From positions 1 to 64,000 of IMG/VR virus record IMGVR_UViG_3300047476_000982: a stretch of DNA of 64,000 nucleotides. One strand, 5' to 3'. Of the stretch, positions 10,970-51,603 are shown one piece after another. Positions within the stretch are counted from its first letter, which is position 1. The number at the start of each line of letters is the position of its first letter. The position numbers and the translations under genes are program-made. The notes beneath the pieces were generated by a model. The model made no database searches. It was given only the letters and a program-made list of their open reading frames with translations, and was not told the DNA's origin. The stretch is from a virus.

Positions 10970-10984
10970 AAAACGTATTTATTT

Positions 10985-25441: not shown

Positions 25442-25517
25442 TCAACTACGTTTTGTGGTTAGAAACTTAGCACTATACTAAGCCTACTTCCCTTTCGGGC
25501 CTACAAATTATACAATT
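25442..25517 (-). promoter_or_regulatory. Structured 5' leader of the S74 fibre gene
   Basis: CCC-GAAA-GGG hairpin flanked by GTAGGC direct repeats, then a CTTAGTA-TAG-TGCTAAG hairpin; a GC-rich patch in AT-rich intergenic DNA. Confidence 0.45.
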
Positions 25518-25525
25518 ATAAATAT
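25518..25525 (-). promoter_or_regulatory. ATATTTAT motif
   Basis: ~77 nt upstream of the ATG at 25441, just before the structured leader. Confidence 0.5.
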
Positions 25526-27205: not shown

Positions 27206-27225
27206 TTAATATATTTTGTCTGTTT

Positions 27226-27233
27226 ATAAATAT
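27226..27233 (-). promoter_or_regulatory. ATATTTAT motif
   Basis: ~21 nt upstream of the ATG at 27205. Confidence 0.55.
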
Positions 27234-31779: not shown

Positions 31780-34700
31780 CTAAGAACAAAAATATTATTT
31801 AGTGATTCTATATTATTTTTATTCACTATATAAGATTTAGAATTTTTATCATTCATACTAATTTCTATTTCAATATCTTCACTATCTAAATCAAATATTT
31901 TATAATCATGAGAATTATCTCCTAATACTTTTTGATAAAAAGTTTCTTTTTTGCCATTTTTATTTATAGTAATTTTTGATATATTTTCTTTACTAGAACT
32001 ACAATTCCATGTAACTATTGCAAATAAGTTATTATTTACTTCTGCGTTTCTTTCGTCTTCATATTTTTTATTATCAGAAACTTTAAATACAGAAGAGAAA
32101 AATCCGTCTATTATAGAATCAGATTCTGCAGGCGAAGTTACTGAATTCCAATACGTTTTTGGAAACTCTCTTTCTAAATCTTCAGGGGTTTTAACTATTA
32201 TATCTTCTAAACCTTTCTTTTTTATAATTCTAAGTAAAAAGTCTTCGACTAATATAAAGTCATTATGCTTACTATTTAAATAAAATTTAGTATTTATATA
32301 ATCTTTTTCTGTATTAATTTTTGGCATTATTTTTGTAAAATAATCTAAATCAAAATACCACAATTGGAAAGACAAATACTTTTCTTCATTCACATAAATA
32401 AATCCTTTTTTATTTTTCTCTTCAGTTTCAATAATTAAATTATTTATGTTTTCTATGTTTTTTATTATAGAATCATATTCTATTCTAATAAATTTTGTAT
32501 ATCCTAAAGACTTAGCTAAATTAGTAGTATGATATAAATTAGAAAGTACAGATAGTCCATGTTTTTGAGATGCTTTATTTGAAAAGCAAAAATATTTTTC
32601 GGCATCACCATACCATAATCCAATTAAATCATTTGTATTATATTCTTTTTCAAATAATCTATTATTTTTATCGTACACTAAATAATCAATACTATCTATT
32701 ATAGATTTATCAAAATCACTATTAGTAACTACCATAATAGGTAATCCTAATTTTTTAATATTTAAAATAGATTCTTTAAAAGTAGAAAGGCAATGATCAT
32801 TATGAAAAAAAGCATCTATAATTACTATAGGATTTTGTTTCGCTTTTCTTTTTGCATATATAGTACCTATTACAGAATCTTCATATCTGTGTTTTATACT
32901 ATCATTATTTAATGAGTTTTGATCTCTTATTTGATCTATTTCAAATCCTTTTGAAGATAATTTATTTACTAATTTAGAAACTTTCTTATTTTGATTATCA
33001 TGAAACTCTATTAAAAAGCCATCTATAACATCAAATACTTCATCTTCTAATTCTTCAATAATTTCATATTCGGCTCCTTCAATATCCATTTTAACTAAAG
33101 ATACTCTATCAATATTATTCTGTTTAATAAATGTTTTTAAAGATATTGCTGGAACTACTATTTCTTCTAATGAATTTGAATGTATTTCTAAATGCTCTTT
33201 AGAAAGACTTCCTATAGTAGTATTTGTAGGATCTATATAAAATTTAAGATCTTCATCTTTAGTATAAACTGCTTTATCTAGTATTTCTATATCTAAATTT
33301 TGAGTAACACTTTTTAAGTTAATTAAAGAATCTTGATTTGGTTCAAATGCATAAATCTTTTTAACTCCTTTATTTGCACATAAAAGAGAAAATAATCCAC
33401 TATTAGCTCCAATATCAAAAACTGTATCTAAATTATCTAATTCATAACAGTCGTATTTTTTAGATAAAAACATTTCATTGTAATTATTAAATAGACAATC
33501 AAATGGATTATTTAAATTTAATGCGACATCTTTTTTTACAGTTTCTTTTATAAATAAATCTTTAGAATATAAAAGTTCATTTTCTAAATTATAAAATTCA
33601 ATTACTAAAGTACCAACGACTGGATCTCTTACGAAGTCTAAAGATTGCACAGGAATTGGTACTATCCACCACGCAGAGCCATTAACAAACTCAGCATTAA
33701 ACCAATACATTGGTGCATTAGAATCTTTTTCTTTTATTGATACTTTATATTTACTAGGCTCGTGTTTTTTATATGTAATATGAATTTTATTCTCTGATGG
33801 ATTTATTGATATATCAAATATTTCGTCTATTTTATTTTCTTGCATTCCTAATTTATTTAATATCAATTTTATATTTTGTTCTTTATTATTAAAATCTAGA
33901 TAATTTATATTACTAAATTTATTAAAATAATTTAAATAAACATCTAGATTAAAAATAAGTGATGGTGTTTTCCAACTAATAGCCTCTCTAATTACCAGAG
34001 GCATTGTTTCTTTATCAGTGGCATGGCCTCTAGAAGTAAATAAAAATAGATCAGCCATTTCAAAAAAAGTATCTACATCATCTCGTTCTCCCCACCATTT
34101 ACAATTACTAGGAAATTCTTTCATTAAAGGTTGCCAATAATCTTGAAAATTATCTGCTTGATTTCCTATAAAGTGAAATTGAATAGGATAGTCTTTAAGC
34201 ATTCTAGCATACTCAATAACTTCTGCTTGATTCTTTCTAGGAGTAAATAATCCTACGTTTATAACATGTTTTTTATTAGGATCTAAACCTAATTTATTTA
34301 ATAATTCTTGTCTAGTATAAGTTTTAGTTTTATATTCTATGGGATATTCTACTAATTGTATTGGAATATTTAATGGTTTATAAGTCTCTACTTGATATTG
34401 ACTTACCATCATAAATTTGTCTGGAAAGTATATTTTTCTATTTATGTCAAAACTTGAATCGTGAGATGTTTCAATTATTTTATATGTTCTATTTATTGAA
34501 TAAAATTTATCTGCAATATCACTAGGCATAAACATTTCAGGGATTTCTTGAAGGTGTATTATGTCTGGATTATATTCTTCAATCAATTTAAATAAATGGT
34601 GTTTATCTTGATCTAGTGTTACTAATCTTTTACCTAAAATATTTTTAATTTTATTTCTTTGAACTACAAGATTACCTCCTGTAATGTCATCCCACTCTAA

Positions 34701-34802
34701 ACAATATATAGAATGTTTTTTATGTAAAGCCTCTATTTGTTTATAAAGATATTGAGGCATTCCACCTGTAGAAAGGTGAGGAGCAATAAAAAATATCGTC
34801 AT
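31776..34802 (-). CDS. Multidomain protein: GT4 glycosyltransferase + FkbM-family methyltransferase + uncharacterised C-terminal domain
   Basis: PHLSTGGMPQY, NVGLFTPRKNQ and DLFLFTS..E..PLVIREA (GT4); FDIGANSG, YAFEPN and VKMDIEGAE (FkbM); ATGA overlap with the next gene. Confidence 0.85.
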   Translation of the reverse strand: MTIFFIAPHLSTGGMPQYLYKQIEALHKKHSIYCLEWDDITGGNLVVQRNKIKNILGKRLVTLDQDKHHLFKLIEEYNPDIIHLQEIPEMFMPSDIADKFYSINRTYKIIETSHDSSFDINRKIYFPDKFMMVSQYQVETYKPLNIPIQLVEYPIEYKTKTYTRQELLNKLGLDPNKKHVINVGLFTPRKNQAEVIEYARMLKDYPIQFHFIGNQADNFQDYWQPLMKEFPSNCKWWGERDDVDTFFEMADLFLFTSRGHATDKETMPLVIREAISWKTPSLIFNLDVYLNYFNKFSNINYLDFNNKEQNIKLILNKLGMQENKIDEIFDISINPSENKIHITYKKHEPSKYKVSIKEKDSNAPMYWFNAEFVNGSAWWIVPIPVQSLDFVRDPVVGTLVIEFYNLENELLYSKDLFIKETVKKDVALNLNNPFDCLFNNYNEMFLSKKYDCYELDNLDTVFDIGANSGLFSLLCANKGVKKIYAFEPNQDSLINLKSVTQNLDIEILDKAVYTKDEDLKFYIDPTNTTIGSLSKEHLEIHSNSLEEIVVPAISLKTFIKQNNIDRVSLVKMDIEGAEYEIIEELEDEVFDVIDGFLIEFHDNQNKKVSKLVNKLSSKGFEIDQIRDQNSLNNDSIKHRYEDSVIGTIYAKRKAKQNPIVIIDAFFHNDHCLSTFKESILNIKKLGLPIMVVTNSDFDKSIIDSIDYLVYDKNNRLFEKEYNTNDLIGLWYGDAEKYFCFSNKASQKHGLSVLSNLYHTTNLAKSLGYTKFIRIEYDSIIKNIENINNLIIETEEKNKKGFIYVNEEKYLSFQLWYFDLDYFTKIMPKINTEKDYINTKFYLNSKHNDFILVEDFLLRIIKKKGLEDIIVKTPEDLEREFPKTYWNSVTSPAESDSIIDGFFSSVFKVSDNKKYEDERNAEVNNNLFAIVTWNCSSSKENISKITINKNGKKETFYQKVLGDNSHDYKIFDLDSEDIEIEISMNDKNSKSYIVNKNNIESLNNIFVLR

Positions 34803-36430: not shown

Positions 36431-39391
36431 TTATGCTTTTGTATAAGTTATATGTATAGAAAGCAATTCTGCTGTTGCTGCTAATGTATCACCAGCTGCT
36501 GCAGGGTTTCTATACGCTCTAAATTGAACAAAATTTCCAGCTGCTGGAGTACCACCAATAGTAATTGCTGATGTTGCTGCTGATATATTAACATCATCAT
36601 TAGCTTGGTTTGCGTCTGTTACTTCTTGTGCTGTGCCAAATGCTTGATCTAAAGCATCGCCATCAGCGTAAGCCCGCGCTTGTAGTCCCCAAACTACAGA
36701 GTTTGTTGATGCATTACCTGCAACCCAATAAAATTTTGCAGTAATAGTTCCACCATTATAATCTGATGGCATTGGTATTGCCCAGTTAGCATATAATGTT
36801 GTAGCACCATCTGCAAATCCTAAATAATAAAAATTAACTTGGTTAGTTGTTGTTTGTGTTGTTTGCGGAGGTTGACAACCGTTAGTTAATGAAGGCCATC
36901 CACCTGCTGCTGTAAGTATTATTGTACCAGTAGTTGATCCACCACCTCCTGGTGTAGCAATTGTTAAAATATTACCTGATGAATCAAATGCAAGTACACC
37001 AGCTGCAGTACCAGTAAATGATGTGGTTGTAGTATACTGAGGTAGTTGTATTTGACCAGTATTTTTTAGTATTAATGTGTTTGTACTTGGTGCAAGTCCA
37101 GTAGAAGTTCCATATCCAATCACAAATTGACTTGTCGCATAATAAGTGAAATATGGATTACTACTTGCAAATCCATGTCCTGTAAAAAATCCTCCAGAAG
37201 TTCTTTCTAATGTTATACCAGCTGCATCTCCACCAGTAACTACTTGTAATTTACCAGAAGTAGGACTTGTAGTATTTATACCTAAGTTACCAGCATCTGA
37301 TAGAGTCATTCTTTTTTGAGTACCTTGAGTATAGAAAGTTAAACCCGATGCTTGGTTAGTTCTGATTTGGAGTTCTCCAGCCGCATATAAAATAGAGTTG
37401 GCATTACTTGCTGCTCCAAAATATAAACTGCCTCCTGTAGTTCCATCTCCTATAATAGCAATATTACCACTTCCTGATATATCTAGTGTTGCTCTTGGAG
37501 AAGTTACAACTCCTACACCTACATTACCTCTAAGTACAGTCCGTGTGATACTATTATTACCTAAAGTAGCAGTATTTGAACCGTGTCCAACATTATTAGA
37601 TCCAATTACTATTTCATTTTGTCCATTACTTTGAGAAGCATATGCAGCATATCCTACATATACTGAACTATCTGCTGTTGTATTTTCTGTAACTCCACCT
37701 CCTAGATATCCTCCTGCACCATTTCCTATTGCTACATTTTGAGTTCCATCTGTATTTCCTACTAAAGCACTATTTCCTATAGCTGTATTAAATGAACCTC
37801 CTGTATTAGCAAATAAAGCGCCGTCACCAAGAGCAACATTTTCTGCTCCATTAGTATTATTTCTCATTGCTGTAGCTCCTACAGCCGTATTAGAATATCC
37901 TGTAGTACTTCCTGATAAAGCAAACCATCCTATTGCGGTATTTCTATCAAGAGATCCCGCTGATCTGGCTAATGCTGCAAGACCAAAAGCAGTATTTGAA
38001 GTAGTCGTATCATTTCCTGTACCTATAGTAAGGCCTGCTACTTGTATATTTCCACTACTTGTAATATTACCAGTTACTGTTAAAGTAGTTCCATTAAATG
38101 TTAAATTACTTTCTACAGTTGCATTTGGAGCAGTACCATTAAGAGTTATTACACCATTATCTGTAGTTCCAGTTAAAGTTAGCGTGCCGCTAGTTCCACT
38201 CGATCCAGAAGAACCTGATGATCCTGTATTACCAGAAGTTCCTGAACTACCTGATGAACCTGAACTACCAGAAGATCCAGGAGAGCCAGTTTGACCTGAT
38301 GAACCTGAACTACCAGAAGTTCCTGAACTACCAGGTGAACCAGTTTGACCTGATGAGCCTGAACTACCAGAAGTTCCAGAAGTACCTGGAGCTCCTGTTT
38401 GTCCAGATGAACCTGATGAACCTGAACTACCTGAAGATCCATTAGCGCCTGAAGTACCTGAGCTGCCACTAGATCCAGATGATCCATTTGCTCCAGAGGT
38501 ACCAGAAGATCCTGAATTTCCAGATGAGCCAGAAGAACCGCTAGATCCACTTGAACCGTTAGCACCACTAGTACCTGATGAGCCACTAGATCCATTTGCT
38601 CCGGAAGTTCCTGAGGATCCTGATGACCCTCGAGTACCTGATGTACCAGATGAGCCAGAAGAACCGCTTGATCCGCTAGAGCCGTTTGCTCCACTTGTTC
38701 CACTAGATCCTGCAGTACCGCTAGATCCTGCGCTTCCAGACGAGCCAGAAGATCCATTTGCGCCTGATGTACCTGCGCTACCAGATGAACCACTTGATCC
38801 ATTAGCCCCACTTGTTCCAGAAGAGCCGGCACTACCTGAAGATCCTGAGCTACCAGATGAACCTGACGACCCATTGGCTCCACTTGTTCCAGAAGATCCT
38901 GATGATCCACTAGAACCGGAAGTGCCAGATGAACCAGCTGCAGCTACCCAAGTGCTACCATTATATCTATAAATGTTATTATCTGAAGTATTGTAATATA
39001 TTTGACCTGCAGCAGTACCTGTTGGATTTGATGCAGCTACGGGTATTCTTAATGATCCTGTTAAATTAGTACTACCTGTTACAGTAAAACTACCACTAAT
39101 ATCTAATGTAGCATTTAATAAAGTTTCTTTACCTACACCTACTGTTGATTGAGAAACAAATAAAGCTCTTTGACCAAATTGACCAATACGTACTGTATTG
39201 TCAGAAAAAGCTTCTATAATAGGAAGGCCCGCTGCTGTATTGACTGAGAATAACGAACCAGAAAGAGAGTCATCAATCTGGAATAAACGACCAGATGTTC
39301 CATCTACTGAAAATACTTCTGACCCAGAAGAATTAATGTTGGCTGATCCTGAGACCAGCAGGCCGTTTTTTACTTTAAATTCGTTTGGCAT
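36431..39391 (-). CDS. Collagen-like tail fibre (986 aa) with YadA-like head repeats and a C-terminal beta-sandwich
   Basis: ~250 aa of (S/T-S/T-G)n; NTA(I/V/F)G..A(L/M) 14-mer repeats; W-rich C-terminal domain. Confidence 0.75.
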   Translation of the reverse strand: MPNEFKVKNGLLVSGSANINSSGSEVFSVDGTSGRLFQIDDSLSGSLFSVNTAAGLPIIEAFSDNTVRIGQFGQRALFVSQSTVGVGKETLLNATLDISGSFTVTGSTNLTGSLRIPVAASNPTGTAAGQIYYNTSDNNIYRYNGSTWVAAAGSSGTSGSSGSSGSSGTSGANGSSGSSGSSGSSGSAGSSGTSGANGSSGSSGSAGTSGANGSSGSSGSAGSSGTAGSSGTSGANGSSGSSGSSGSSGTSGTRGSSGSSGTSGANGSSGSSGTSGANGSSGSSGSSGSSGNSGSSGTSGANGSSGSSGSSGTSGANGSSGSSGSSGSSGQTGAPGTSGTSGSSGSSGQTGSPGSSGTSGSSGSSGQTGSPGSSGSSGSSGSSGTSGNTGSSGSSGSSGTSGTLTLTGTTDNGVITLNGTAPNATVESNLTFNGTTLTVTGNITSSGNIQVAGLTIGTGNDTTTSNTAFGLAALARSAGSLDRNTAIGWFALSGSTTGYSNTAVGATAMRNNTNGAENVALGDGALFANTGGSFNTAIGNSALVGNTDGTQNVAIGNGAGGYLGGGVTENTTADSSVYVGYAAYASQSNGQNEIVIGSNNVGHGSNTATLGNNSITRTVLRGNVGVGVVTSPRATLDISGSGNIAIIGDGTTGGSLYFGAASNANSILYAAGELQIRTNQASGLTFYTQGTQKRMTLSDAGNLGINTTSPTSGKLQVVTGGDAAGITLERTSGGFFTGHGFASSNPYFTYYATSQFVIGYGTSTGLAPSTNTLILKNTGQIQLPQYTTTTSFTGTAAGVLAFDSSGNILTIATPGGGGSTTGTIILTAAGGWPSLTNGCQPPQTTQTTTNQVNFYYLGFADGATTLYANWAIPMPSDYNGGTITAKFYWVAGNASTNSVVWGLQARAYADGDALDQAFGTAQEVTDANQANDDVNISAATSAITIGGTPAAGNFVQFRAYRNPAAAGDTLAATAELLSIHITYTKA
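38185..38942 (-). repeat. Gly-X-Y coding repeat (Ser/Thr-rich)
   Basis: Gly at every third codon throughout; synonymous codons scrambled. Confidence 0.9.
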
Positions 39392-41840: not shown

Positions 41841-44800
41841 TTATAATAAGTTAGCAATTGATTTTACTGTCCAAACACCAGATGATGTAAATTGAAGTTG
41901 CACATTTGCTCCTGATATACCTACTGCAAATAAAGCAGAGTTGGTATTTCCTATATCAGTAGTTGTTACTTCAGTAAATCTTACGGTTGTTCCATTCCAA
42001 ACACTCATTACTTGACCTGATCTTGCATTTGATCCAGAAGCTATTGTATAGTTATAGAATGCAGATGTTGCAGAACCTGTGTTTATTGATGATACTACTA
42101 CTGCACCAGTTGTTGTAATAGATGATGTAGAATTAAATTCTGCTATACCTAAATCTAATGGTCCACCATTTATTAATACAGATCCTGTAAATTGGTGAGT
42201 ATTAGTAGTCAGCGTACCAAATCTAGTTGATCCAGTTATAAAGCTTACACTTGATGTTACTGTTTGAACACTAAGTGTCTGAGCAGTTATTGTACCTGTT
42301 GAAGTTACATTACCAGTTACTGTTAATGTGCTACCATCAAATGTTAAGTTTGCTTCTGCGTTTGCAGTATTAGTCGTACCTAGAGATGTTAATACCCTAT
42401 TGTCAACAGGGTTAGTAATTGTATTGAATCCTGTACCTGAAGTTCCTGAGCTGCCAGATGATCCGGAAGATCCACTACTACCATTTGCACCTGAAGTTCC
42501 ACTTGATCCTGATGTACCTGAGCTACCTGAAGTACCTGATGAACCAGAACTACCATTTGCTCCAGACGTGCCTGATGATCCTGAGCTACCTGATGAACCA
42601 TTTGCCCCACTAGTGCCTGATGAACCGCTTGATCCATTTGCACCTGAAGTTCCACTTGATCCAGATGAGCCAGAGCTACCATTAGCTCCAGATGTACCTG
42701 ATGAACCGCTTGATCCATTTGCACCTGAAGTTCCACTTGATCCAGATGAGCCAGAGCTACCATTAGCTCCAGATGTACCTGATGAACCGCTAGATCCGTT
42801 AGCACCTGAAGTTCCTGATGAACCGGAAGAACCGCTAGAACCAGATGATCCATTTGCTCCAGATGTGCCTGATGAACCCGATGTACCTGATGAACCACTT
42901 GAACCATTAGCTCCTGATGTACCTGATGAACCAGAAGATCCCCGAGTACCTGAAGTTCCTGAACTACCACTAGTACCATTTGCTCCAGATGTGCCTGATG
43001 ATCCTGATGTACCGGAACTACCATTTGCACCTGATGTGCCTGAACTACCAGAACTACCATTAGCTCCACTAGTTCCACTTGATCCTGATGTACCTGATGA
43101 TCCTGATGTACCTGATGAACCACTTGAACCATTAGCTCCACTAGTTCCTGATGATCCAGATGTGCCTGAAGATCCAGAAGTTCCAGATGACCCAGAAGTT
43201 CCGCTTGAACCAGCAGCCGCTAACCAAGTAGTACCATTATATCTGTAGATATTATTGTCTGTACTATTATAATATATTTGACCTGCTGATGTACCAACTG
43301 GATTAGTTGTAGATACGGGTATTCTTAAAGATCCTGTTATAGAAACAGATCCTGTGAATTGATGCGTATTAGTTAATAAAGATCCATTAATACTTGAGCC
43401 AGTAACATATTCTCTAGATGAAGTTACTTCTTGTACATTTAAAGTTTGCGCTATAATATTTCCAACTACAGTTAAAGTAGTTCCATCAAAAGTTAAATTA
43501 GCTTCAGCATTTGCTGTATTAGTCGTACCTAGAGATGTAAGTATTCTATTATCTGCTGGGTTAGTAATAGTATTAAAACCAGTACCTGAAGTTCCTGAGC
43601 TACCTGATGATCCACTAGAACCAGAAGAACCACTTACTCCACTTGTTCCACTAGATCCTGCAGTACCGCTAGATCCACTAGTTCCTGAAGAGCCACTTGA
43701 ACCATTTGCGCCAGATGTACCTGAGCTACCTGAAGTACCTGATGAACCAGAACTACCATTTGCACCTGATGTACCAGAAGAACCACTTGAGCCGCTTGAT
43801 CCATTTGCACCTGAAGTTCCACTTGATCCTGACGTACCGCTAGATCCAGAAGTTCCAGATGAGCCAGAAGATCCATTTGCTCCACTTGTTCCAGAAGAAC
43901 CAGATGTACCTGATGAACCACTTGAACCATTAGCTCCACTAGTTCCACTTGTACCAGATGAACCAGCGCCAGATAACCAAGTAGATCCATTATAACGATA
44001 AATGTTATCGTCAGTCGTATTATAATATACTTGACCTTCTTCTGTACCAGTAGGAGTTGAAGCGTATACTGGGAATCTTAGTGAGCCTGAAATAATTGTT
44101 GAACCAGATATTGTTAATCCATTTGTATATCTACCTGAACCAGATACGTCAAAGCTAAATTGAGGATTAGGTTGATTAATACCTATTCTACCATTAGCAG
44201 AGCCAGAGAATGGATTCGCAGTATATGTTGTATAGTTACTATTTACTCCTTGCCAAGCAGATCCTGTAGCAAATATTAAACCTCCTATATTGATGCTATC
44301 TTGAGCATTTGTTGGTAATGAAATATTTGTACCTATTATAATGTTGTTTCTTCCTAGAGTAGAGTTTCTCCCAGAGAATGAACCTATAATTATAGAATTA
44401 GAACCACTAGTTAAAGAATTGCCAGTGCCATTTCCTATTATAATTGATGAAATACTATTATTAGACAAACTAAATGCATCAAACCCAATAGCAATACTAT
44501 AGCTACCTGTTTTTGCAGAATACGCTGTAGAATTTCCTATAAATGTAGATCTAGTTGCTCCTTTAACTCCGTATGCAGCACTCTCTCCTATAGCAACTAT
44601 TTCAGAAGAATTTACTAATCCATTTCCTGAAAGCCATCCAATTAAAACGGATTCTTGGCTATTAATTGTATTTAGTCCTGCATATGCGCCTACTACTACA
44701 TTATAAAAATTATTGTCTGAATTTTTTCCAGCACTAGCTCCTATTAAAACTGCATCTGATGAAGCTGTACTATTAGCTGCTACTGAATCTCCTATTAACA

Positions 44801-47800
44801 CATTATCTCCTGAATTAGAAAATACTACAATAGATCCACTATGTATATTATTTCCTATAGCAACACTTCCATAATTATAAACATCTGTTTTATATGATGT
44901 TCCAACAGTAGAATATATAGTACTACCACTAACAGCTAAAGGATAAGATGAACTAATAGCATTTCTTGCCCAACTAGCAGTTCCGAATAACGAACTTGTT
45001 ATAGAAGTAGCAGAAATATTATCTACATTAGTAATGTCATTTCCATCAAGAGATAAATTTCCTTGCATTGCTCTAGTACCATCAACTAACAAATATTGTT
45101 GATGATCATCTGCATCTAACCCTAATAAGTTTCCATGTAAAGTAACTACGCCTGTTCTAGAAGGCGATGCAAAACCAAGCCTAGGTCTTTCATCAATTAT
45201 AGATTGAATACTAGCACTATCTGGGGTTACTACTATGGAAGCAAATAAAGCAAATTGCTCTGTTACAAAGCTTGGAGGAGTCGGTAAAGAACCTGCTTCA
45301 GCAGCTTCAACATTATCATATAAATCTTGACCATAAACAAGGAAATACCTTGTTGTAGGAAGACCTATCATATATAATGAATGCTTAGTATATTTTCCAG
45401 ATGGTATTGATTGCAAAGTACCAAAACTAGCACTATCGTATAAAGTATTACTTGCAGTAGTTTGACTTGCAACTCTAGTAAATCCAGATCCACCAACACC
45501 TGTACCAGCTGATCCGCTTCTATAAAAAGCATCAAAAGTTATAGGAGACGCACCTGTAGTACTTATTCTATGTTCGGAGAAGAAATATATTGCAGAAGTA
45601 ACGTCTAAACTTCTAGATACAATTCCTTGAGTAGTTGTTGCTCCTGATTGGAATATAGGTCCTAATGCATCTCTAAATAATCTGTCTACATAGTTGCTAT
45701 AGTGGTGAGCATCTAAAGGTGTTCTATCTATATAAACTATAGAAGTTGAATCAGTAATAACTCTTCCTAAAGGAACGTTAAATCTAGAGTTAGGTTCAGT
45801 TGCAGAAGAGGTTAATATACCAGAACCATTATAATAAACATATCTATCAGATGAAGTAGGCATTGTTATTTGCCTAGATTCTGTAGTTGTTCCTCTAGTA
45901 TTAATTTTAAATAAATTATGATTAGCATACCCACCTTGACTCATTACGTATCCTACAGACTCTGCTACTTGAAGAGTTAATGCACTAGCAGTACTTAAAG
46001 CACCGCCATCAATAATACCCATCGTACTAGCAAAAGATATTAGATCACCAATTTCTGTTTTAACAGCAGACGGTTCTCTAACCCAATCAAGTCCTCCATA
46101 AAGTACGATTGATGCAGTATTAATTCCAGCACCACCGCTAGGAATTAAAGTGATATTGCCTCTAGGATTAGCAAATATACTTGCAGAAATAGAACTAGAA
46201 ACAGTTAAAGATCCTGTAATTATTACGTTTCCAGGAATAGTAACATTAGTTCCATCATCAGTAATTTGAGAGTCTCCGATATGTTCTCCGCTCTCTCCTG
46301 AATATCCTTTTGTAAGTCTATTTAAAGTTATTTGAGTTTCATTACCTAAATTATTATAGGTTTCAGGACCCATAATTCCAATAGAACTAGTCGGTGATGA
46401 TCCAGCAGGTTGTTGATGGATCATTATCCATCTATCTTTAGTGGAATCAAATAACCAAGATCCTGATCTTTGAGGGCTTGATCCTGAATCAATAACAGCT
46501 AATCCACCATAACGTACAGATGGAGTATTAGAGTTTACAGTAATTAAATTAGTTCCAATATTAAGTGTAGATTCACTTACATATGTAATAGAAGCAGATC
46601 CTAAAACAGTTAAATTTTGTAATATAGTTAAACTTCCTGATACTGTAGTAATGCTACCAGAAACTGTTAATACTGACGAAGCTGTTGCGGCATTTGTAGT
46701 ACCATCTGATACTAAAACTCTATATAATGCTGGATTATTTATTGTATTAAATCCTGTTCCACTAGAGCCAGATGATCCAGAACTACCTGAAGAACCTGAC
46801 GATCCACTTGAACCAGAAGATCCGTTTGCTCCACTAGTTCCACTAGATCCTGACGAACCTGTGGAACCAGAACTACCAGAAGTACCAGTAGAACCTGAGC
46901 TACCGCTAGTACCTGTTGATCCACTAGAACCACTTGATCCAGATGATCCAGCACTACCTGATGAACCAGATGAACCGTTTGCTCCGCTTGTACCAGAACT
47001 ACCGGAAGATCCAGAACTACCACTAGTACCTGTTGATCCGCTTGATCCAGATGAGCCTGCAGTACCACTAGTACCAGATGAACCTGAGCTACCAGATGAA
47101 CCATTAGCTCCTGATGTTCCACTAGATCCGCTTGTGCCAGTAGATCCACTTGAGCCTGAAGATCCAGAACTACCGCTAGATCCTGCTGTACCAGAAGTAC
47201 CACCACCAACAATTAATGATGCTTCAAACCAAGTTCCGTTTCCTGAAGAATTTATATTTTGAGATGTAGGATTTCCTGTATAAGCAGTAACTTCTACATA
47301 ATCTGTTGAACCATTAAAATAAATTATTGCATCTATTTCTTGTGCATAACCTGAGCCAGATAGAATTTGAGTTTGATGTATGGCAATTTGAGTTGTTCCA
47401 TTTTTTCTAAATTGGATATTGCTTTGGTTATTAGTTACAGAACCGGCATCCCACCAAACTTGGGCATTAGTTATATAATAACCTGCAACAGTTGGTTGAA
47501 TTTTATTAGAAGTTAACCAATTATTAGGATCAAAATCATCGCCAAATGTTACAACAGTATCAACACCATTTGATATAGTTTGCGAACCTCCTTGTTTAGT
47601 ACCTCTAACAATATAGTTAGATGCTACAAGTCCTGTTGGTGAAGTACCTGATGAACCTGCAGTACCTGATGAACCACTAGAACCAGAAGTACCAGAGTTA
47701 CCAGACGTACCACTAGATCCACTCGAGCCATTAGCTCCGCTAGTTCCTGCAGATCCACTTGAACCTGATGTCCCTGAACTTCCAGAAGATCCAGAAGAAC

Positions 47801-50800
47801 CATTAGCACCACTAGTTCCTGCTGATCCAGAACTACCTGATGAACCACTAACACCTGATGATCCAGATGATCCGCTTGATCCAGATGAGCCTGAGGAACC
47901 GCTTACTCCTGACGTACCTGAACTACCGGAAGATCCAGAACTACCATTTGCTCCTGATGTACCTGATGTACCACTAGTTGCTGTAGTAAATGATGTTCCG
48001 TTTATAGTTAATGATCCAGTAATATTTACAGAGCCTGTAAATTGATGAGTATTAGATAATTCACTACCAAATACTGTTGAGCCTGTAATATATTCTTGAG
48101 AAGATGTAATATTCTGTACAATAAGTGTTTGCGCTGTTATTGTTCCAGAACTTACAATACTTCCAGTTATACTAAGAGTATTATTAGAAAAAGATAAATT
48201 AGTTGATGCAGTTGCTGCATTTGTAGTGCCGTCTGATAATATTATTCTATTAGCTCCAGGATTATTGATGGTATTGAATCCTGTACCTGAAGTTCCTGAA
48301 GTACCTGATGATCCAGATGATCCGCTTGAACCATTAGCTCCTGATGTTCCACTACTGCCAGAAGTACCAGTTGATCCACTACTACCGCTTGTACCTGTTG
48401 AACCAGATGTGCCGCTAGAACCAGATGATCCATTTGCTCCGCTTGTTCCAGAAGATCCAGAACTACCTGCAGATCCTGAGCTACCAGATGTTCCACTAGA
48501 TCCGTTTGCTCCAGATGTCCCAGAACTTCCAGATGAACCACTTGAACCAGAAGTACCATTTGAACCATCGGCACCGGAAGTACCTGACGATCCTGAACTA
48601 CCTGAAGTTCCTGATTCTCCACTTGTGCCACTAGATCCTGAGCTGCCAGATGATCCACTAGAACCAGATAAACCTGAAGTACCTGATGAACCACTAGTTC
48701 CACTCTCTCCGCTTGTACCTGAAGACCCTGAACTACCTGATGTACCAGAAACTCCACTACTTCCAGAAGACCCTGATGTTCCCGCACTTCCTGATGAGCC
48801 GCTAGTACCGCTCTCTCCACTAGTTCCTGAGCTTCCTGATGTTCCAGAAGTACCCGATTCTCCAGAACTTCCACTAGATCCACTTGTTCCTGTAGAACCA
48901 GATGAACCAGAACTACCGCTTGAACCAGATGATCCAGTTGTACCAGAACTACCTGATGATCCAGAGCTGCCAGATGAACCATTAGCTCCCGATGTTCCAC
49001 TTGTACCTGAAGTCGCAGCAGTAAATGATGAACCATTTATAGTTAATGATCCAGTAATATTTACAGAACCTGTAAATTGATGAGTATTTGAAAGTTGAGA
49101 TCCAAAAACTGTTGATCCAGTTACATATTCAACACTAGAAGTTATTGTTTGAACAATTAAAGTTTGTGCAGTAATTGTATTTTGGATTAATGCATTTGAT
49201 GCAGTTATTGCTCCATTAATAGAAATATCTCCTAAATTATTTATTGATCCTGTAACTGATAAAATATTATTATCATAAGTTAAATTAGACGATGCAGTCG
49301 CTGCATTTGTTGTACCATCAGACAATATTATTCTGCCTTGACCAGCATTGCTAATAGTATTAAATCCTGTTCCTGAAGATCCTGCTGTACCGCTTGAGCC
49401 TGTAGAACCAGATGAGCCACTAGATCCGCTAGTGCCTGCAGATCCACTTGAACCTGCCGATCCTGAGCTGCCAGATGATCCGCTTTCCCCACTAGTGCCA
49501 GATGAACCAGAACTACCCGAAGTGCCAGATGTTCCAGAGCTTCCGCTAGATCCAGTTGAGCCAGAACTTCCAGATGTTCCTGATTCTCCACTAGTTCCTG
49601 AACTACCTGATGATCCAGAGCTACCAGACGTTCCCGACTCTCCACTAGTGCCAGATGATCCAGAGGAACCTGTACTACCAGATGATCCTGTAGAACCAGA
49701 AGATCCCGATGTACCTGTAGACCCAGAAGATCCTGATGTACCAGAACTTCCAGATGAACCTGAGGATCCAGATGTTCCACTTTCCCCACTAGTACCAGAA
49801 GATCCTGATGTACCTGTACTTCCAGAACTTCCTGATGATCCACTAGATCCAGAAGTACCTGAGCTACCGCTTGAACCTGAACTACCAGATGATCCAGCAG
49901 TTCCAGAAGTTCCTGATGTAGCTGCGGTGAAAGACGATCCATTTATACTTAATGATCCAGTAATATTTACTGAACCAGTAAACTCATGAGTATTAGATAA
50001 TTGAGAGCCGAATATAGTTGACCCAGTTACATATTCAATTGATGATGTAATTGTTTGTGCTACTATAGTTTGTGCAGTTAATGTTCCTCTAACTAAAAAA
50101 TTATCTGCAGAAGATGCTGTATCCGCTAATGTTGCAGATGCTGCTTTATTAGTATATTGAAATAAACCAGTAGATGGATTTACAGCAACTAAAGAGCCTG
50201 ATAATGAATTATTTTGAGCAATAACAGGATTGTAAATACTACCACTTATATTAATTGATCCAGTTAATTCATGTTGATTATTTGGATCTAATCTAAATTT
50301 TCTATTAGATATACTATCTTCTCCTCCAACAAAAAATTCAAGAGGGTAATTAGAAGCATTACCTATATATAAATAATTTCCTGTAGAATATAAATAGGCA
50401 TCACTTCCTAATCCAACCCCTCCAGTAACATTATAATTAGTGCTGTTAATACCTAAATTAATAAAGTTAGTAGTTTCAGTAGCATTGTCATTTTCAGCTA
50501 CTATATCTGAAGAAGCTTCACTTCCTGTTGATCTATTTTGTAAACTAAGTTGAGAGTAATTATCAACATCACCTTTTATTTGAACTAAATTATATGTTTC
50601 TGTACCTTGTATTCCTTCTATCCAAAGAGAAGCAGGATTAAATGAATCATATTGACTTGAGTTAATACTAATAGTACCTTGATTATGAATCCATAATCTA
50701 GCATTTTCAGTAGTATCAAAACCACCATTAAAGAAAATAATTTGTTTACCTGAAACAGCATTACCTATTAGTAAATTTTCACCTGTAGAATATAAATAAG

Positions 50801-51323
50801 CATCTAAAGCACTACCAATATATTGATTAGCATTATATCCAGAACCATTAATACCTAAATTAACATAATTAGCTTCTTCGTTTCCATTATCAGCAGTCGC
50901 TACAATATCTGAAGACGCACTAGGTCCTGAATTAAAATTTTTTATATTTAATTGAACATAACCATCTACATCAGCATGACCTGATATTAAATTATACGAA
51001 TTTGTTAAAGAGTTTACTAAAAAAGTTTCAATAGCTTCAGGATGTAATGATCCTGTTGCGTTTATAGCAGTAAAAGATCCTGATTGATAAATCGTACTAG
51101 AAACTAACGCTTCTGATCCAGAAAATACAGATAAATAAAATGAAGATCCACTAATAAAACCTGAACCTATAGTAACTATTTCTTCACCTGCAGAACCAGA
51201 TCTTTTCATAAACGCTTTACCATCATAGGTATTAAGCGCAATTTCACCAAGTTGTAAAGAAGCTGTATCAGGTATTCTACCTGGTACTGCGCTTCTACGC
51301 AGTTTCAGATACTGGTTTGACAT
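41841..51323 (-). CDS. Giant modular tail fibre (3160 aa): Mtd-N-like N-terminus, six Gly-Ser/Thr collagen-like blocks, YadA-like repeats
   Basis: LRRSAVPGRIP...GEIALNTYDGKAF N-terminus; six G-X-Y blocks; repeated NTHQFTGS and TGFNTI modules. Confidence 0.85.
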   Translation of the reverse strand: MSNQYLKLRRSAVPGRIPDTASLQLGEIALNTYDGKAFMKRSGSAGEEIVTIGSGFISGSSFYLSVFSGSEALVSSTIYQSGSFTAINATGSLHPEAIETFLVNSLTNSYNLISGHADVDGYVQLNIKNFNSGPSASSDIVATADNGNEEANYVNLGINGSGYNANQYIGSALDAYLYSTGENLLIGNAVSGKQIIFFNGGFDTTENARLWIHNQGTISINSSQYDSFNPASLWIEGIQGTETYNLVQIKGDVDNYSQLSLQNRSTGSEASSDIVAENDNATETTNFINLGINSTNYNVTGGVGLGSDAYLYSTGNYLYIGNASNYPLEFFVGGEDSISNRKFRLDPNNQHELTGSINISGSIYNPVIAQNNSLSGSLVAVNPSTGLFQYTNKAASATLADTASSADNFLVRGTLTAQTIVAQTITSSIEYVTGSTIFGSQLSNTHEFTGSVNITGSLSINGSSFTAATSGTSGTAGSSGSSGSSGSSGTSGSSGSSGSSGSTGTSGSSGTSGESGTSGSSGSSGSSGTSGSSGSTGTSGSSGSTGSSGSTGSSGSSGTSGESGTSGSSGSSGSSGTSGESGTSGSSGSTGSSGSSGTSGTSGSSGSSGTSGESGSSGSSGSAGSSGSAGTSGSSGSSGSTGSSGTAGSSGTGFNTISNAGQGRIILSDGTTNAATASSNLTYDNNILSVTGSINNLGDISINGAITASNALIQNTITAQTLIVQTITSSVEYVTGSTVFGSQLSNTHQFTGSVNITGSLTINGSSFTAATSGTSGTSGANGSSGSSGSSGSSGTTGSSGSSGSSGSSGSTGTSGSSGSSGESGTSGTSGSSGTSGESGTSGSSGSAGTSGSSGSSGVSGTSGSSGSSGTSGESGTSGSSGTSGLSGSSGSSGSSGSSGTSGESGTSGSSGSSGTSGADGSNGTSGSSGSSGSSGTSGANGSSGTSGSSGSAGSSGSSGTSGANGSSGSSGTSGSTGTSGSSGSTGTSGSSGTSGANGSSGSSGSSGTSGTSGTGFNTINNPGANRIILSDGTTNAATASTNLSFSNNTLSITGSIVSSGTITAQTLIVQNITSSQEYITGSTVFGSELSNTHQFTGSVNITGSLTINGTSFTTATSGTSGTSGANGSSGSSGSSGTSGVSGSSGSSGSSGSSGSSGVSGSSGSSGSAGTSGANGSSGSSGSSGTSGSSGSAGTSGANGSSGSSGTSGNSGTSGSSGSSGTAGSSGTSPTGLVASNYIVRGTKQGGSQTISNGVDTVVTFGDDFDPNNWLTSNKIQPTVAGYYITNAQVWWDAGSVTNNQSNIQFRKNGTTQIAIHQTQILSGSGYAQEIDAIIYFNGSTDYVEVTAYTGNPTSQNINSSGNGTWFEASLIVGGGTSGTAGSSGSSGSSGSSGSTGTSGSSGTSGANGSSGSSGSSGTSGTAGSSGSSGSTGTSGSSGSSGSSGTSGANGSSGSSGSAGSSGSSGSSGSTGTSGSSGSTGTSGSSGSTGSSGSSGTSGANGSSGSSGSSGSSGSSGSSGSSGTGFNTINNPALYRVLVSDGTTNAATASSVLTVSGSITTVSGSLTILQNLTVLGSASITYVSESTLNIGTNLITVNSNTPSVRYGGLAVIDSGSSPQRSGSWLFDSTKDRWIMIHQQPAGSSPTSSIGIMGPETYNNLGNETQITLNRLTKGYSGESGEHIGDSQITDDGTNVTIPGNVIITGSLTVSSSISASIFANPRGNITLIPSGGAGINTASIVLYGGLDWVREPSAVKTEIGDLISFASTMGIIDGGALSTASALTLQVAESVGYVMSQGGYANHNLFKINTRGTTTESRQITMPTSSDRYVYYNGSGILTSSATEPNSRFNVPLGRVITDSTSIVYIDRTPLDAHHYSNYVDRLFRDALGPIFQSGATTTQGIVSRSLDVTSAIYFFSEHRISTTGASPITFDAFYRSGSAGTGVGGSGFTRVASQTTASNTLYDSASFGTLQSIPSGKYTKHSLYMIGLPTTRYFLVYGQDLYDNVEAAEAGSLPTPPSFVTEQFALFASIVVTPDSASIQSIIDERPRLGFASPSRTGVVTLHGNLLGLDADDHQQYLLVDGTRAMQGNLSLDGNDITNVDNISATSITSSLFGTASWARNAISSSYPLAVSGSTIYSTVGTSYKTDVYNYGSVAIGNNIHSGSIVVFSNSGDNVLIGDSVAANSTASSDAVLIGASAGKNSDNNFYNVVVGAYAGLNTINSQESVLIGWLSGNGLVNSSEIVAIGESAAYGVKGATRSTFIGNSTAYSAKTGSYSIAIGFDAFSLSNNSISSIIIGNGTGNSLTSGSNSIIIGSFSGRNSTLGRNNIIIGTNISLPTNAQDSINIGGLIFATGSAWQGVNSNYTTYTANPFSGSANGRIGINQPNPQFSFDVSGSGRYTNGLTISGSTIISGSLRFPVYASTPTGTEEGQVYYNTTDDNIYRYNGSTWLSGAGSSGTSGTSGANGSSGSSGTSGSSGTSGANGSSGSSGTSGSSGTSGSSGTSGANGSSGSSGSSGTSGANGSSGSSGTSGSSGTSGANGSSGSSGTSGSSGTAGSSGTSGVSGSSGSSGSSGSSGTSGTGFNTITNPADNRILTSLGTTNTANAEANLTFDGTTLTVVGNIIAQTLNVQEVTSSREYVTGSSINGSLLTNTHQFTGSVSITGSLRIPVSTTNPVGTSAGQIYYNSTDNNIYRYNGTTWLAAAGSSGTSGSSGTSGSSGTSGSSGTSGANGSSGSSGTSGSSGTSGSSGTSGANGSSGSSGTSGANGSSGTSGSSGTSGANGTSGSSGTSGTRGSSGSSGTSGANGSSGSSGTSGSSGTSGANGSSGSSGSSGSSGTSGANGSSGSSGTSGANGSSGSSGSSGTSGANGSSGSSGTSGANGSSGSSGSSGTSGANGSSGSSGTSGANGSSGSSGSSGTSGANGSSGSSGTSGSSGTSGSSGTSGANGSSGSSGSSGSSGTSGTGFNTITNPVDNRVLTSLGTTNTANAEANLTFDGSTLTVTGNVTSTGTITAQTLSVQTVTSSVSFITGSTRFGTLTTNTHQFTGSVLINGGPLDLGIAEFNSTSSITTTGAVVVSSINTGSATSAFYNYTIASGSNARSGQVMSVWNGTTVRFTEVTTTDIGNTNSALFAVGISGANVQLQFTSSGVWTVKSIANLL
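42430..49926 (-). repeat. Six Gly-X-Y coding repeat blocks, approx. 42430-43212, 43579-43970, 46752-47206, 47640-47980, 48280-49020 and 49368-49926
   Basis: Gly at every third codon; X/Y almost all Ser/Thr with Ala-Asn, Glu-Ser and Val-Ser variants; ~3.27 kb in total. Confidence 0.9.
42616..42791. repeat. Exact 81-nt tandem duplication (~2.2 copies)
   Basis: 42616-42696 is identical to 42697-42777 and continues for 14 nt. Confidence 0.9.
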
Positions 51324-51374
51324 GTGACGTTATTAGTTAGTATATACTGGTTCAAAGACTATGTAGTCTCATGT

Positions 51375-51382
51375 ATAAATAT
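51375..51382 (-). promoter_or_regulatory. ATATTTAT motif before the giant fibre gene
   Basis: ~52 nt upstream of the ATG at 51323; followed by an AGACT-ACAT-AGTCT hairpin. Confidence 0.55.
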
Positions 51383-51603
51383 TAGTAATCTCCTAAATCC
51401 ATAGTATCAAAGCTGCCAGAATCTCCAAAAGAATCAATATTTTGTATAGTTAATGAACCTGTTTTTTCATTAGTAGAAGCTATATAAACAGAACCTGAAA
51501 TAATAAAATCTGCATTTTGTCCACTGCCACTTAAACTAAGTTGTGAATTAGCTTCATTATATTGAAGATTTGATAATATTTGTTTAAATTTTAACCTTGC
51601 CAT
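51382..51603 (-). CDS. Small hypothetical virion protein
   Basis: 73 aa; starts 1 nt after the upstream stop. Confidence 0.6.
   Translation of the reverse strand: MARLKFKQILSNLQYNEANSQLSLSGSGQNADFIISGSVYIASTNEKTGSLTIQNIDSFGDSGSFDTMDLGDY

What the first reader, a model, noticed from the sequence alone, without database searches (positions are those of the whole stretch)
42430..49926. Proline-free collagen: ~1,090 residues of Gly-X-Y with Ser/Thr at X and Y in one 3160-aa fibre
Seen: six blocks with Gly at every third residue and essentially no Pro or charge pairs; variant triplets (ANG, ESG, VSG, TRG) keep the register. Established: bacterial and phage collagens usually rely on Pro and charged residues, and Ser-rich triplets are poor triple-helix formers. 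At ~0.29 nm per residue the blocks would total roughly 300 nm of rod, longer than a tail built on a 915-aa tape measure. Inference: either a modification-stabilised triple helix or a flexible, hydrated, polyglycine-II/mucin-like tether.
Basis: partly seen in the sequence, partly recalled or inferred. Interest (0 to 1): 0.75.

Follow-up and report, generated by a model that had tools for sequence, protein, structure and literature searches.

The report
Proline-free collagen-like phage fibre
An uncultured T4-like water phage encodes a 3,160-residue fibre in which six long glycine-serine/threonine "collagen" rods with no proline are strung between trimer-forming knobs. The same gene cluster holds a protein-sugar-adding enzyme, so the fibre is probably a sugar-coated triple helix of a chemistry for which I found no published study.

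Summary
ORF 41841-51323 (-) encodes 3,160 aa with six unbroken Gly-X-Y blocks: 359 triplets, 1,077 aa, no Pro, 1.4% charged X/Y residues, mostly GSS and GTS.

The periodicity is under selection. Gly is invariant while codons vary. Two orthologues keep 305 and 387 unbroken triplets, and their block lengths differ only by whole triplets.

A triple helix is the best reading:
- The domain between blocks 3 and 4 folds as a C1q/TNF trimer knob.
- Homologous knobs elsewhere sit between Pro-rich or Ser/Thr-type collagen blocks.
- A related cultured phage (Mel-JY01) ends a Ser/Thr block with GPPGPPGPPG plus Cys.

The fibre cluster also encodes a GT4 fused to a TibC-type protein heptosyltransferase (E 3e-62). 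The catalytic Asp and the four iron-finger Cys are kept. Such enzymes lie within 10 kb of Ser/Thr collagen blocks in 19 of 33 viral clusters, against 2 of 79 control loci.

Nothing here shows helix formation, glycosylation or presence in the virion.

This scan has noted the same class before in at least 66 other genomes. Phage collagen-like fibres are known; this is a new variant.

The parts
41841..51323 (-). Fibre gene, 3,160 aa
   Evidence: Single open frame. Pfam Collagen PF01391 E 3e-136 and many PHROG tail-fibre families. Orthologues in L001 and L176.
49914..51323 (-). N-terminal domain, aa 1-470, probable virion anchor. Its first ~50 aa are a motif shared with other phage fibres.
   Evidence: More than 120 metagenomic relatives of 1,700-5,000 aa, none with Gly-X-Y blocks. 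Residues 1-50 are 53-60% identical to the starts of cyanophage S-CBS2 and DSL-LC02 collagen-like proteins.
49365..49913 (-). Collagen-like block 1, 61 triplets
   Evidence: The orthologous blocks have 72 triplets (L001) and 78 (L176) between the same flanks.
49008..49364 (-). Connector 1, aa 654-772. Starts GTGFNTI and ends ...THQFTGSVNITGSL.
   Evidence: The same module follows five of the six blocks. A search with the connector after block 5 (aa 2571-2716) gave 1,806 representative proteins at E<=1e-3.
48279..49007 (-). Collagen-like block 2, 81 triplets
   Evidence: Orthologues have 82 and 80 triplets.
47973..48278 (-). Connector 2, aa 1016-1117
47640..47972 (-). Collagen-like block 3, 37 triplets
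47202..47639 (-). C1q/TNF-like jelly-roll knob, aa 1229-1374, between blocks 3 and 4
   Evidence: AlphaFold2 with a 55-sequence alignment: pLDDT 88.3, pTM 0.85. Foldseek top PDB matches are phage knobs (9eul, 9k09) and the C1QL1-3 gC1q and TNF-family trimers, target-normalised TM about 0.8. 346 relatives were found, two with Pfam C1q on record.
46752..47201 (-). Collagen-like block 4, 50 triplets
   Evidence: The counterparts (same downstream flank) have 64 triplets in L001 and 45 in L176.
43965..46751 (-). Central non-collagen region, aa 1525-2453, with beta-rich repeats. Function unknown.
   Evidence: 80% identical to L001 over the first 602 aa. Part of it is 36% identical to uncultured huge phages. 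No PDB sequence match.
43578..43964 (-). Collagen-like block 5, 43 triplets, preceded by a ...YYNxxDxNIYRYNGxxW motif
43212..43577 (-). Connector 3, aa 2583-2704
42429..43211 (-). Collagen-like block 6, 87 triplets. Contains a 97%-identical 81-nt duplication at 42616-42815.
   Evidence: The orthologous block in L176 has 85 triplets.
41844..42428 (-). Last connector and C-terminal domain, aa 2966-3160, probable distal tip
   Evidence: 82% identical to the end of the L176 orthologue. No PDB sequence match.
51374..51381 (-). TATTTATA motif 51 nt upstream of the fibre start codon, a candidate late promoter
   Evidence: The motif recurs 15-76 nt upstream of the starts of six other structural-module ORFs, and has 30 matches against 17 expected.
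36431..39391 (-). Second collagen-like fibre gene, 986 aa. One block of 84 triplets (window 38180-38935), 4% Pro at Y.
29698..31779 (-). GT4 glycosyltransferase fused to a TibC-type (BAHT) protein heptosyltransferase domain. The BAHT part is aa 355-690, window 29710-30717.
   Evidence: Pfam GT1/GT4 and GT9. PDB TibC 4RB4/4RAP at E 3e-62. Asp110, Thr226, Lys230, Trp305 and Cys339/342/358/370 are conserved; Arg286 is Thr and Pro300 is Ser.
31776..34802 (-). GT4 + FkbM methyltransferase + unknown C-terminal domain, 1,008 aa. Overlaps the next glycosyltransferase gene by 4 nt.
   Evidence: Pfam Glycos_transf_1 and Methyltransf_21.

Best explanation
The gene encodes a segmented, homotrimeric fibre of a distant T4-like myovirus. 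Its nearest cultured relatives infect Flavobacterium and Microcystis.

An N-terminal anchor is followed by six Gly-(Ser/Thr)-Ser blocks that each form a collagen-type triple helix 32-75 nm long. The blocks are separated by short beta-rich connectors, one C1q/TNF-type trimer knob and a 930-residue central region, and the protein ends in a tip domain.

The helices contain no proline and no charge pairs. I propose they are held together in three ways:
- the trimeric domains at both ends of every block tether the three chains and set their register;
- the blocks are long, and Ser/Thr hydroxyls provide hydration;
- probably, Ser/Thr residues carry O-linked sugars added in the infected cell by the phage's own enzymes. 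The TibC-type heptosyltransferase domain would add the first sugar, the GT4 domains would extend it and the FkbM domain would methylate it.

The result would be a long, jointed, hydrophilic line that widens the phage's reach for its host.

Shown: the sequence anatomy, selection on the register, the knob fold, conservation of the enzyme's residues, and the gene-neighbourhood link. Inferred: trimer and helix formation, glycosylation and its substrate, position on the virion, and the role in adsorption.
For: 1. Strict register under selection. There are 359 unbroken triplets here, 305 in L001 and 387 in L176. Net length differences between L001 and window blocks bounded by shared flanks are 99, 9, 45 and 126 nt, all multiples of 9. 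Gly codons are invariant at bases 1-2 with four third-base variants, and GSS is coded by 47 different 9-mers.

2. Seventeen Ser/Thr-type relatives have 8 short breaks in 585 triplets. Pro-containing relatives have a similarly low rate, 16 in 2,183.

3. The domain at aa 1229-1374 is a C1q/TNF jelly-roll, the classic trimer head of collagen stalks.

4. Homologues of that knob, 60-83% identical, are flanked in other proteins by Pro/Gln-type or by Ser/Thr-type Gly-X-Y blocks. The two chemistries therefore occupy the same structural slot.

5. In Microcystis phage Mel-JY01 a Ser/Thr block ends in GPPGPPGPPG followed by CCDC. (GPP)n ends act as triple-helix nucleation sites (PMC7824840).

6. The TibC homologue scores E 3e-62 and keeps the catalytic Asp and all four iron-finger Cys.

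7. Ser/Thr-type blocks of at least 15 triplets lie within 10 kb of BAHT homologues in 33 of 50 loci. After dereplication that is 19 of 33 clusters, or 15 of 22 with at least 15 kb. Among sheath-centred control loci of the same phage group it is 2 of 79, and both of those lie on BAHT-bearing contigs.

8. In L018 the GT4-BAHT gene is 33 nt upstream of a 2,567-aa Ser/Thr collagen fibre gene.

9. Mel-JY01 and cyanophage DSL-LC02 also place glycosyl- and FkbM methyl-transferases beside Pro-poor collagen-like genes. Phage immuto has neither a BAHT homologue nor collagen.

10. Glycosylated collagen-like BclA is a published precedent (PMC8968730).
Against: - No experiment shows a triple helix for any Pro-free, uncharged Ser/Thr sequence. 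The published accounts I read attribute the stability of bacterial collagen-like helices to Pro, charged or polar residues, or hydration networks.
- AlphaFold here models single chains only, so the trimer and the helix were not modelled.
- Known BAHT substrates are Ser residues on beta-helical autotransporter passengers, not collagen (PMC4358343). The target could be another fibre part.
- Arg286, one of TibC's sugar-binding residues, is Thr here.
- No sugar-nucleotide synthesis gene was found in the window.
- Fourteen of 33 BAHT clusters show no collagen block within the DNA available. The closest relatives of the N-terminal domain build their shafts without any Gly-X-Y.
- Virion incorporation rests only on gene position and family names.
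Confidence: 0.6

Rival explanations
1. The blocks are flexible, hydrated, non-helical tethers (disordered or single-chain PPII, possibly mucin-like when glycosylated). They only space and loosely link the folded domains.
For: The composition (69% Ser, 17% Thr at X/Y, no Pro, 1.4% charged) resembles designed Gly-Ser linkers and lacks every published stabiliser. Glycosyltransferases nearby would also fit a mucin-like brush.
Against: A floppy linker has no need for Gly at exactly every third residue. Yet 1,051 triplets in three phages have no break, and length changes come only in whole triplets despite heavy synonymous divergence. The break rate equals that of Pro-containing collagen relatives. 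C1q-type knobs and a (GPP)3-Cys cap in relatives are triple-helix accessories.
Confidence: 0.22
2. The blocks form a genuine triple helix that is not glycosylated. The TibC-type enzyme and its partner transferases modify something else, such as another fibre's beta-helical part, the capsid or a host structure.
For: Known BAHT substrates are beta-helical passengers. This fibre and its neighbours contain beta-rich repeat regions. Thirty viral loci (6 clusters at 95% identity) with BAHT homologues below 43% identity to the window's have no collagen nearby. End-tethering by trimer domains might suffice in a cold-water phage.
Against: There is a strong neighbourhood link between the closer BAHT clade and Ser/Thr collagen blocks: 19 of 33 clusters against 2 of 79 control loci. 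The genes are directly adjacent in L018.
Confidence: 0.25
3. Each chain folds back on itself into an intramolecular polyglycine-II bundle, as in snow-flea antifreeze protein or the T-even gp38 glycine-rich sandwich, rather than forming an inter-chain triple helix.
For: Gly at every third residue with small side chains is also the signature of polyglycine-II bundles (my own knowledge, not tested here).
Against: Such bundles need regularly spaced turns. The non-Ser/Thr triplets (GAN, GES, GSA) are spaced irregularly, 1 to 16 triplets apart, and differ between blocks. Block lengths drift freely by 1-14 triplets between orthologues.
Confidence: 0.04

Closest known systems
Collagen-like phage and prophage tail-fibre proteins ('bacteriophage collagen'; EPclA/EPclB of E. 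coli O157:H7, PMC3368898; P-SSM2 orf028, PMC1079782)
   Same: Gly-X-Y shaft inside a phage fibre, flanked by globular trimerising domains and lying in the structural gene module. It matches Pfam Collagen and PHROG tail-fibre families. EPclA was shown to be a trimer with a collagen stalk.
   Different: EPclPs have 48% Pro at X, 36% Asp/Glu at X and 31% Arg/Lys at Y. Viral collagens on average have 22% Pro at X. This fibre has 0% Pro and 1.4% charged residues, 359 triplets split into six rods, and a C1q-type knob in mid-chain.
BclA, the collagen-like exosporium glycoprotein of Bacillus anthracis/cereus (PMC8968730)
   Same: Hydroxy-amino-acid-rich Gly-X-Y repeats next to a C1q/TNF-type trimer domain. 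BclA is O-glycosylated, and glycosylation is thought to aid hydration and stability. Here glycosyltransferases lie in the same cluster.
   Different: BclA repeats are mostly GPT, so Pro is present. Its C1q-like domain is terminal, not internal. Its glycosylation enzymes are unrelated to TibC. It is a spore protein, not a phage fibre. Glycosylation here is only inferred.
C1q/TNF superfamily proteins with collagen stalks (C1q, C1QL1-3, EDA-A1)
   Same: The model of aa 1229-1374 superposes on gC1q and TNF jelly-rolls with target-normalised TM about 0.8, directly after a Gly-X-Y run.
   Different: Sequence identity is only 12-18%. The best structural matches are phage knobs (phi812 central spike, cyanophage A4). 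The domain is followed by a second collagen block.
TibC/AAH bacterial autotransporter heptosyltransferases (BAHT; PDB 4RAP/4RB4; PMC4358343)
   Same: The match over TibC residues 43-385 scores E 3e-62. The catalytic Asp110, Thr226, Lys230, Trp305 and the four iron-finger Cys are conserved.
   Different: It is phage-encoded and fused behind a GT4 domain. The match starts at TibC residue 43, so part of the N-terminal beta-barrel is missing or replaced. Arg286 is Thr. No autotransporter substrate is present; the likely substrate is a Ser-rich fibre.
Pro-poor collagen-like proteins of cultured cyanophages (Synechococcus phage DSL-LC02 OR032571; Microcystis phage Mel-JY01 PP395634)
   Same: Pro-poor, hydroxy-amino-acid-rich Gly-X-Y blocks (DSL-LC02: 1% Pro at X, 3% Asp at Y; Mel-JY01: 3.2% Pro, 8.4% charged) lie beside glycosyl- and FkbM methyl-transferase genes. 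Mel-JY01 also has a BAHT domain 48% identical to this one.
   Different: DSL-LC02 uses Thr/Ala/Gln triplets with frequent 2-residue breaks. Mel-JY01 has (GPP)3 and Cys at one block end. Both proteins are much shorter. Neither has been studied biochemically, as far as my searches show.

Membership tests
Collagen triple-helix repeat proteins (Pfam PF01391) | Gly at every third residue over long uninterrupted runs | tested here: met
   Six runs of 37-87 triplets, 359 in all, with no break. Pfam Collagen E 3e-136 against a cut-off of 27.2 bits.
Collagen triple-helix repeat proteins (Pfam PF01391) | Known stabilisers at X/Y: Pro/Hyp, charge pairs or Gln/Thr hydration patterns | tested here: not met
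   0% Pro, 1.4% charged, no Gln. Thr is 17% and Ser 69% of X/Y, against the published compositions.
Collagen triple-helix repeat proteins (Pfam PF01391) | Three chains forming a triple helix (CD signature, cooperative melt, protease resistance) | not testable with these tools
   Only indirect support: a C1q/TNF trimer knob, register conservation and a (GPP)3-Cys cap in Mel-JY01.
Phage tail-fibre proteins | Gene in the structural module, with homology to fibre families | tested here: met
   The gene lies between neck/head genes and other fibre genes, all on one strand. PHROG tail-fibre families score down to E 1e-147, although most of that score comes from the repeats.
Phage tail-fibre proteins | Presence in the virion and attachment to the baseplate | not testable with these tools
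   No proteomics or imaging is available. Attachment to the neck or head instead of the baseplate is not excluded.
C1q/TNF-like jelly-roll domain | Ten-strand jelly-roll fold superposable on gC1q/TNF | tested here: met
   Model pLDDT 88.3. Foldseek probability 1.00 and target-normalised TM 0.75-0.83 to C1QL1-3.
C1q/TNF-like jelly-roll domain | Sequence membership in Pfam C1q PF00386 | tested here: not met
   No Pfam C1q hit on the window protein at E<=0.01. Two distant relatives carry PF00386 on record.
BAHT heptosyltransferases (TibC/AAH) | Catalytic base Asp110 and the sugar-binding residues Thr226, Lys230, Arg286, Trp305 | tested here: inconclusive
   Asp, Thr, Lys and Trp are conserved; Arg286 is replaced by Thr.
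BAHT heptosyltransferases (TibC/AAH) | Iron-finger of four Cys (339, 342, 358, 370) | tested here: met
   All four Cys align.
BAHT heptosyltransferases (TibC/AAH) | Heptosylation of Ser on a protein substrate; dodecameric ring | not testable with these tools
   No biochemical data. The substrate is inferred from gene neighbourhood only.

The most novel reading that the evidence does not exclude
A phage-encoded TibC-type glycosyltransferase line (BAHT + GT4 + FkbM) hyperglycosylates the Ser/Thr residues of a proline-free, uncharged collagen triple helix. Sugar, rather than hydroxyproline or salt bridges, would then be the main stabiliser. That would be a third chemical solution for the collagen fold, used to build jointed phage fibres hundreds of nanometres long.
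Probability: 0.35. Interest if true: 0.8.

Novelty: new variant of a known kind. Interest (0 to 1): 0.6.

Why it matters
Collagen stability is usually explained by imino acids, hydroxyproline, charge pairs or Gln/Thr hydration. A natural family of long Gly-Ser/Thr-Ser helices with none of the first three would test how far end-tethering, hydration and glycosylation can carry the fold. It could also supply very simple, hydrophilic collagen scaffolds.

The recurring link to a TibC-type enzyme suggests that some phages glycosylate their own fibres with a type of enzyme so far described, in the papers I read, only for bacterial adhesins. That would affect host recognition and how such phages look to defence and immune systems.

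Microcystis phage Mel-JY01 is cultured and carries both features, so the question is directly testable.

Tried and rejected
- Nucleotide alignment inside the repeats gave arbitrary gap sizes. Only the net lengths between conserved flanks are used.
- Single-sequence AlphaFold2 of the knob failed (pLDDT 39.5). It succeeded only with an alignment.
- PDB sequence searches with the N-terminal, central, C-terminal and knob regions found nothing.
- tblastn of connector 3 against 50,697 cultured-phage records found nothing.
- The N-terminal domain search gave more than 120 long relatives, none with Gly-X-Y blocks. That route gave no orthologous blocks. It shows that the collagen rods are swapped-in shaft modules, not an ancestral part of that fibre family.
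- No whole genome is held for the window, so sugar-nucleotide genes elsewhere in the phage could not be sought.
- A polyglycine-II bundle was considered and set aside because the variant triplets are not regularly spaced.
- An assembly artefact was set aside because equivalent genes occur on many independent contigs.
- Literature searches for 'proline-free' collagen-like helices and for glycosylated phage collagen fibres found no study of this chemistry.

Full report
**Observation**

The window is one long run of minus-strand genes from a myovirus. It holds a portal, major capsid protein, PhoH, sheath, tube, baseplate hub and several fibre genes. The capsid protein is 55% identical to Flavobacterium phage vB_FspM_immuto, 50% to Microcystis phage Mel-JY01, and more distantly related to T4-type gp23.

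ORF 41841..51323 (-) encodes 3,160 residues. It contains six uninterrupted Gly-X-Y blocks of 61, 81, 37, 50, 43 and 87 triplets. That is 359 triplets or 1,077 residues, with no proline, ten charged residues, and Ser plus Thr filling 86% of X and Y positions. GSS and GTS make up 78% of the triplets. GAN, GST, GES, GSA, GTA and GVS supply most of the rest.

**Is the pattern selected?**

It is not a young DNA repeat.
- All four Gly codons are used while the two G's never change.
- Ser uses six codons from both codon families.
- GSS is written in 47 different ways.
- Tandem-repeat periods are 9, 18, 27 ... 81 nt, and most copies match only 62-83%.

Two orthologous genes were recovered from IMG/VR.
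- L001 is cut by the contig end and has five blocks of 72, 82, 42, 45 and 64 triplets.
- L176 is complete at 2,789 aa from its Met and has six blocks of 78, 80, 43, 56, 45 and 85 triplets.
- Neither has proline or any break.

Where the flanking sequences are shared, the net length differences between L001 and the window are 99, 9, 45 and 126 nt, all multiples of 9.

In 17 further Ser/Thr-type relatives there are 8 short breaks in 585 triplets. Pro-containing relatives have a similarly low rate, 16 in 2,183.

**Anatomy**

Five of the six blocks end in GTGFNTI followed by a conserved beta-rich connector (...ITAQT..VQ.ITSS...TGST.FG...NTHQFTGSV.ITGSL). Blocks begin either after ...INGxSFTxATS or after a ...YYNxxDxNIYRYNGxxW motif. 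The connector is widespread: 1,806 representative proteins at E<=1e-3. Of the 142 newly listed representatives among the 150 best hits, 34 carry Gly-X-Y runs, mostly proline-free and Ser/Thr-rich but far shorter, at 6-87 triplets.

The N-terminal 465 residues have more than 120 long metagenomic relatives. None of them has collagen blocks. Their shafts are other Ser/Thr/Gly-rich repeats joined by the same connector. The collagen rods are therefore interchangeable shaft modules.

**The knob**

Residues 1229-1374 lie between blocks 3 and 4 and have 346 relatives. With a 55-sequence alignment, AlphaFold2 gives a confident all-beta model (pLDDT 88.3, pTM 0.85). Its best PDB matches are phage knobs (phi812 central spike, cyanophage A4) and the gC1q domains of C1QL1-3, Caprin-2 and C1q, plus TNF-family trimers.

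Homologues 60-83% identical sit between collagen blocks in many other proteins. Those blocks range from Pro/Gln-rich (15-30% Pro) to Ser/Thr-only. The same trimer head thus serves both chemistries. This is the best indirect argument that the Ser/Thr blocks adopt the same triple helix.

A second argument comes from Mel-JY01. Its unannotated collagen-like gene has one Ser/Thr block that ends in GPPGPPGPPG followed by CCDC. (GPP)n ends are known nucleation sites (PMC7824840).

**The glycosylation lead**

About 7.5 kb downstream of the second collagen-like gene's Gly-X-Y block (the 986-aa ORF: 84 triplets, 4% Pro at Y) lie two multi-domain enzymes:
- a GT4 + FkbM methyltransferase protein;
- a GT4 fused to a GT9-like domain.

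The GT9-like domain matches TibC, the autotransporter heptosyltransferase, at E 3e-62. Counting along the alignment against the residues named in PMC4358343 gives this picture:
- the catalytic Asp110, Thr226, Lys230, Trp305 and all four iron-finger cysteines are kept;
- Arg286 is Thr;
- Pro300 is Ser, as in AAH.

I tested it here and it holds.

BAHT homologues occur on at least 110 IMG/VR contigs. Around homologues at least 43% identical, Ser/Thr-type blocks of 15 or more triplets lie within 10 kb in 33 of 50 loci. After clustering at 95% that is 19 of 33 clusters, or 15 of 22 where at least 15 kb is available. Thirty loci with more distant homologues have none. Of 79 sheath-centred control loci covering the same total length, 2 have such blocks, and both lie on BAHT-bearing contigs.

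In L018 the GT4-BAHT gene sits 33 nt upstream of a 2,567-aa fibre gene with 307 proline-free triplets. Mel-JY01 has collagen gene, fibre gene and FkbM-BAHT fusion in a row. Cyanophage DSL-LC02 places a mannosyltransferase and two FkbM genes beside a proline-poor Gly-Thr/Ala-Thr/Gln protein. Phage immuto has neither feature.

**Interpretation**

The most likely reading (0.6) is a homotrimeric, jointed fibre whose six rods are collagen-type helices. At 0.286 nm per residue (established value) the rods would measure 52, 70, 32, 43, 37 and 75 nm, 308 nm in total if collinear. The knob and connectors are probable hinges, so the end-to-end reach is likely shorter.

Stabilisation by end-tethering and hydration is inferred. 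Stabilisation by O-glycosylation has neighbourhood support only (about 0.35-0.4).

The main rivals are a flexible tether (0.22), which fits poorly with the strict register, and a triple helix that is not the enzyme's substrate. A polyglycine-II bundle is unlikely because the variant triplets are irregularly spaced.

**Comparison with known systems and novelty**

Collagen-like phage fibres are known: Smith et al. 1998, as cited in PMC1079782, and EPclA (PMC3368898). Ser/Thr-containing Gly-X-Y was remarked on in P-SSM2 in 2005. Published compositions of viral collagens differ sharply from this one: 22% Pro and 35% Asp/Glu at X, and 38% Arg/Lys at Y.

I found no study of a proline-free, uncharged Ser/Thr triple helix, nor of a phage BAHT.

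Earlier notes of this scan describe the same class in at least 66 other genomes, some with far longer single blocks. Those notes are unchecked leads and were not used as evidence.

What this window adds is the segmented design, the internal C1q/TNF knob shared with Pro-type collagens, and a tested, residue-level TibC homologue with a quantified neighbourhood link. I class it as a new variant of a known kind.

**Limits**

- No trimer modelling, biochemistry or virion data were available.
- The rest of the phage genome is not held.
- The neighbourhood statistics use contigs of uneven length and an imperfect control.

Noticed in passing
L007 (PP395634.1, Microcystis phage Mel-JY01) 2-3052 +: The deposited record annotates two antisense 'hypothetical proteins' (1-651 and 739-2298, minus strand) across what is really a plus-strand Ser/Thr collagen-like gene. 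That gene has at least 1,016 aa and 202 triplets and is cut by the start of the linear record.
   Followed up: partly
window 51374-51381, 9922-9929, 10984-10991, 11574-11581, 15068-15075, 25517-25524, 27225-27232 (motif read on the minus strand): TATTTATA lies 15-76 nt upstream of the start codons of the fibre gene and six other structural-module ORFs. The window has 30 matches against 17 expected. This is a candidate late-promoter motif.
   Followed up: partly
window 39696-40367, 40511-41158, 41161-41829 (-): Three paralogous ORFs of about 220 aa with ConA-like lectin/Laminin_G_3 domains lie directly downstream of the giant fibre gene. They may be fibre-associated sugar-binding or tip proteins.
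   Followed up: no
window 51382-51603 (-): An unlisted 73-codon ORF fills the gap between the 420-aa gene and the fibre gene, just upstream of the TATTTATA motif.
   Followed up: no
window 42616-42815: An 81-nt unit (9 triplets) is repeated 2.5 times at 97% identity inside block 6. It is a recent duplication within an otherwise diverged repeat and shows how the blocks grow.
   Followed up: partly
L067-L096 (IMG/VR contigs): The 30 viral loci whose BAHT homologue is most distant from the window's (most are 34-40% identical) have no collagen-like block within 10 kb, so these enzymes probably have a different substrate.
   Followed up: partly
L007 11243-13162 +: Mel-JY01 encodes a 639-aa 'cytidylyltransferase like protein' about 3 kb from its FkbM-BAHT fusion. 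It might make the activated sugar donor. I did not examine it.
   Followed up: no
window 47202-47639 and proteins P0264-P0334: The C1q/TNF-like knob stays 60-83% identical across proteins whose flanking repeats differ completely (collagen of several chemistries, or none). It behaves as a mobile, strongly conserved module.
   Followed up: partly
window 30001-34000: The glycosyltransferase genes lie in the lowest-GC stretch of the window (23-28%, against about 33% overall), which hints at separate acquisition.
   Followed up: no
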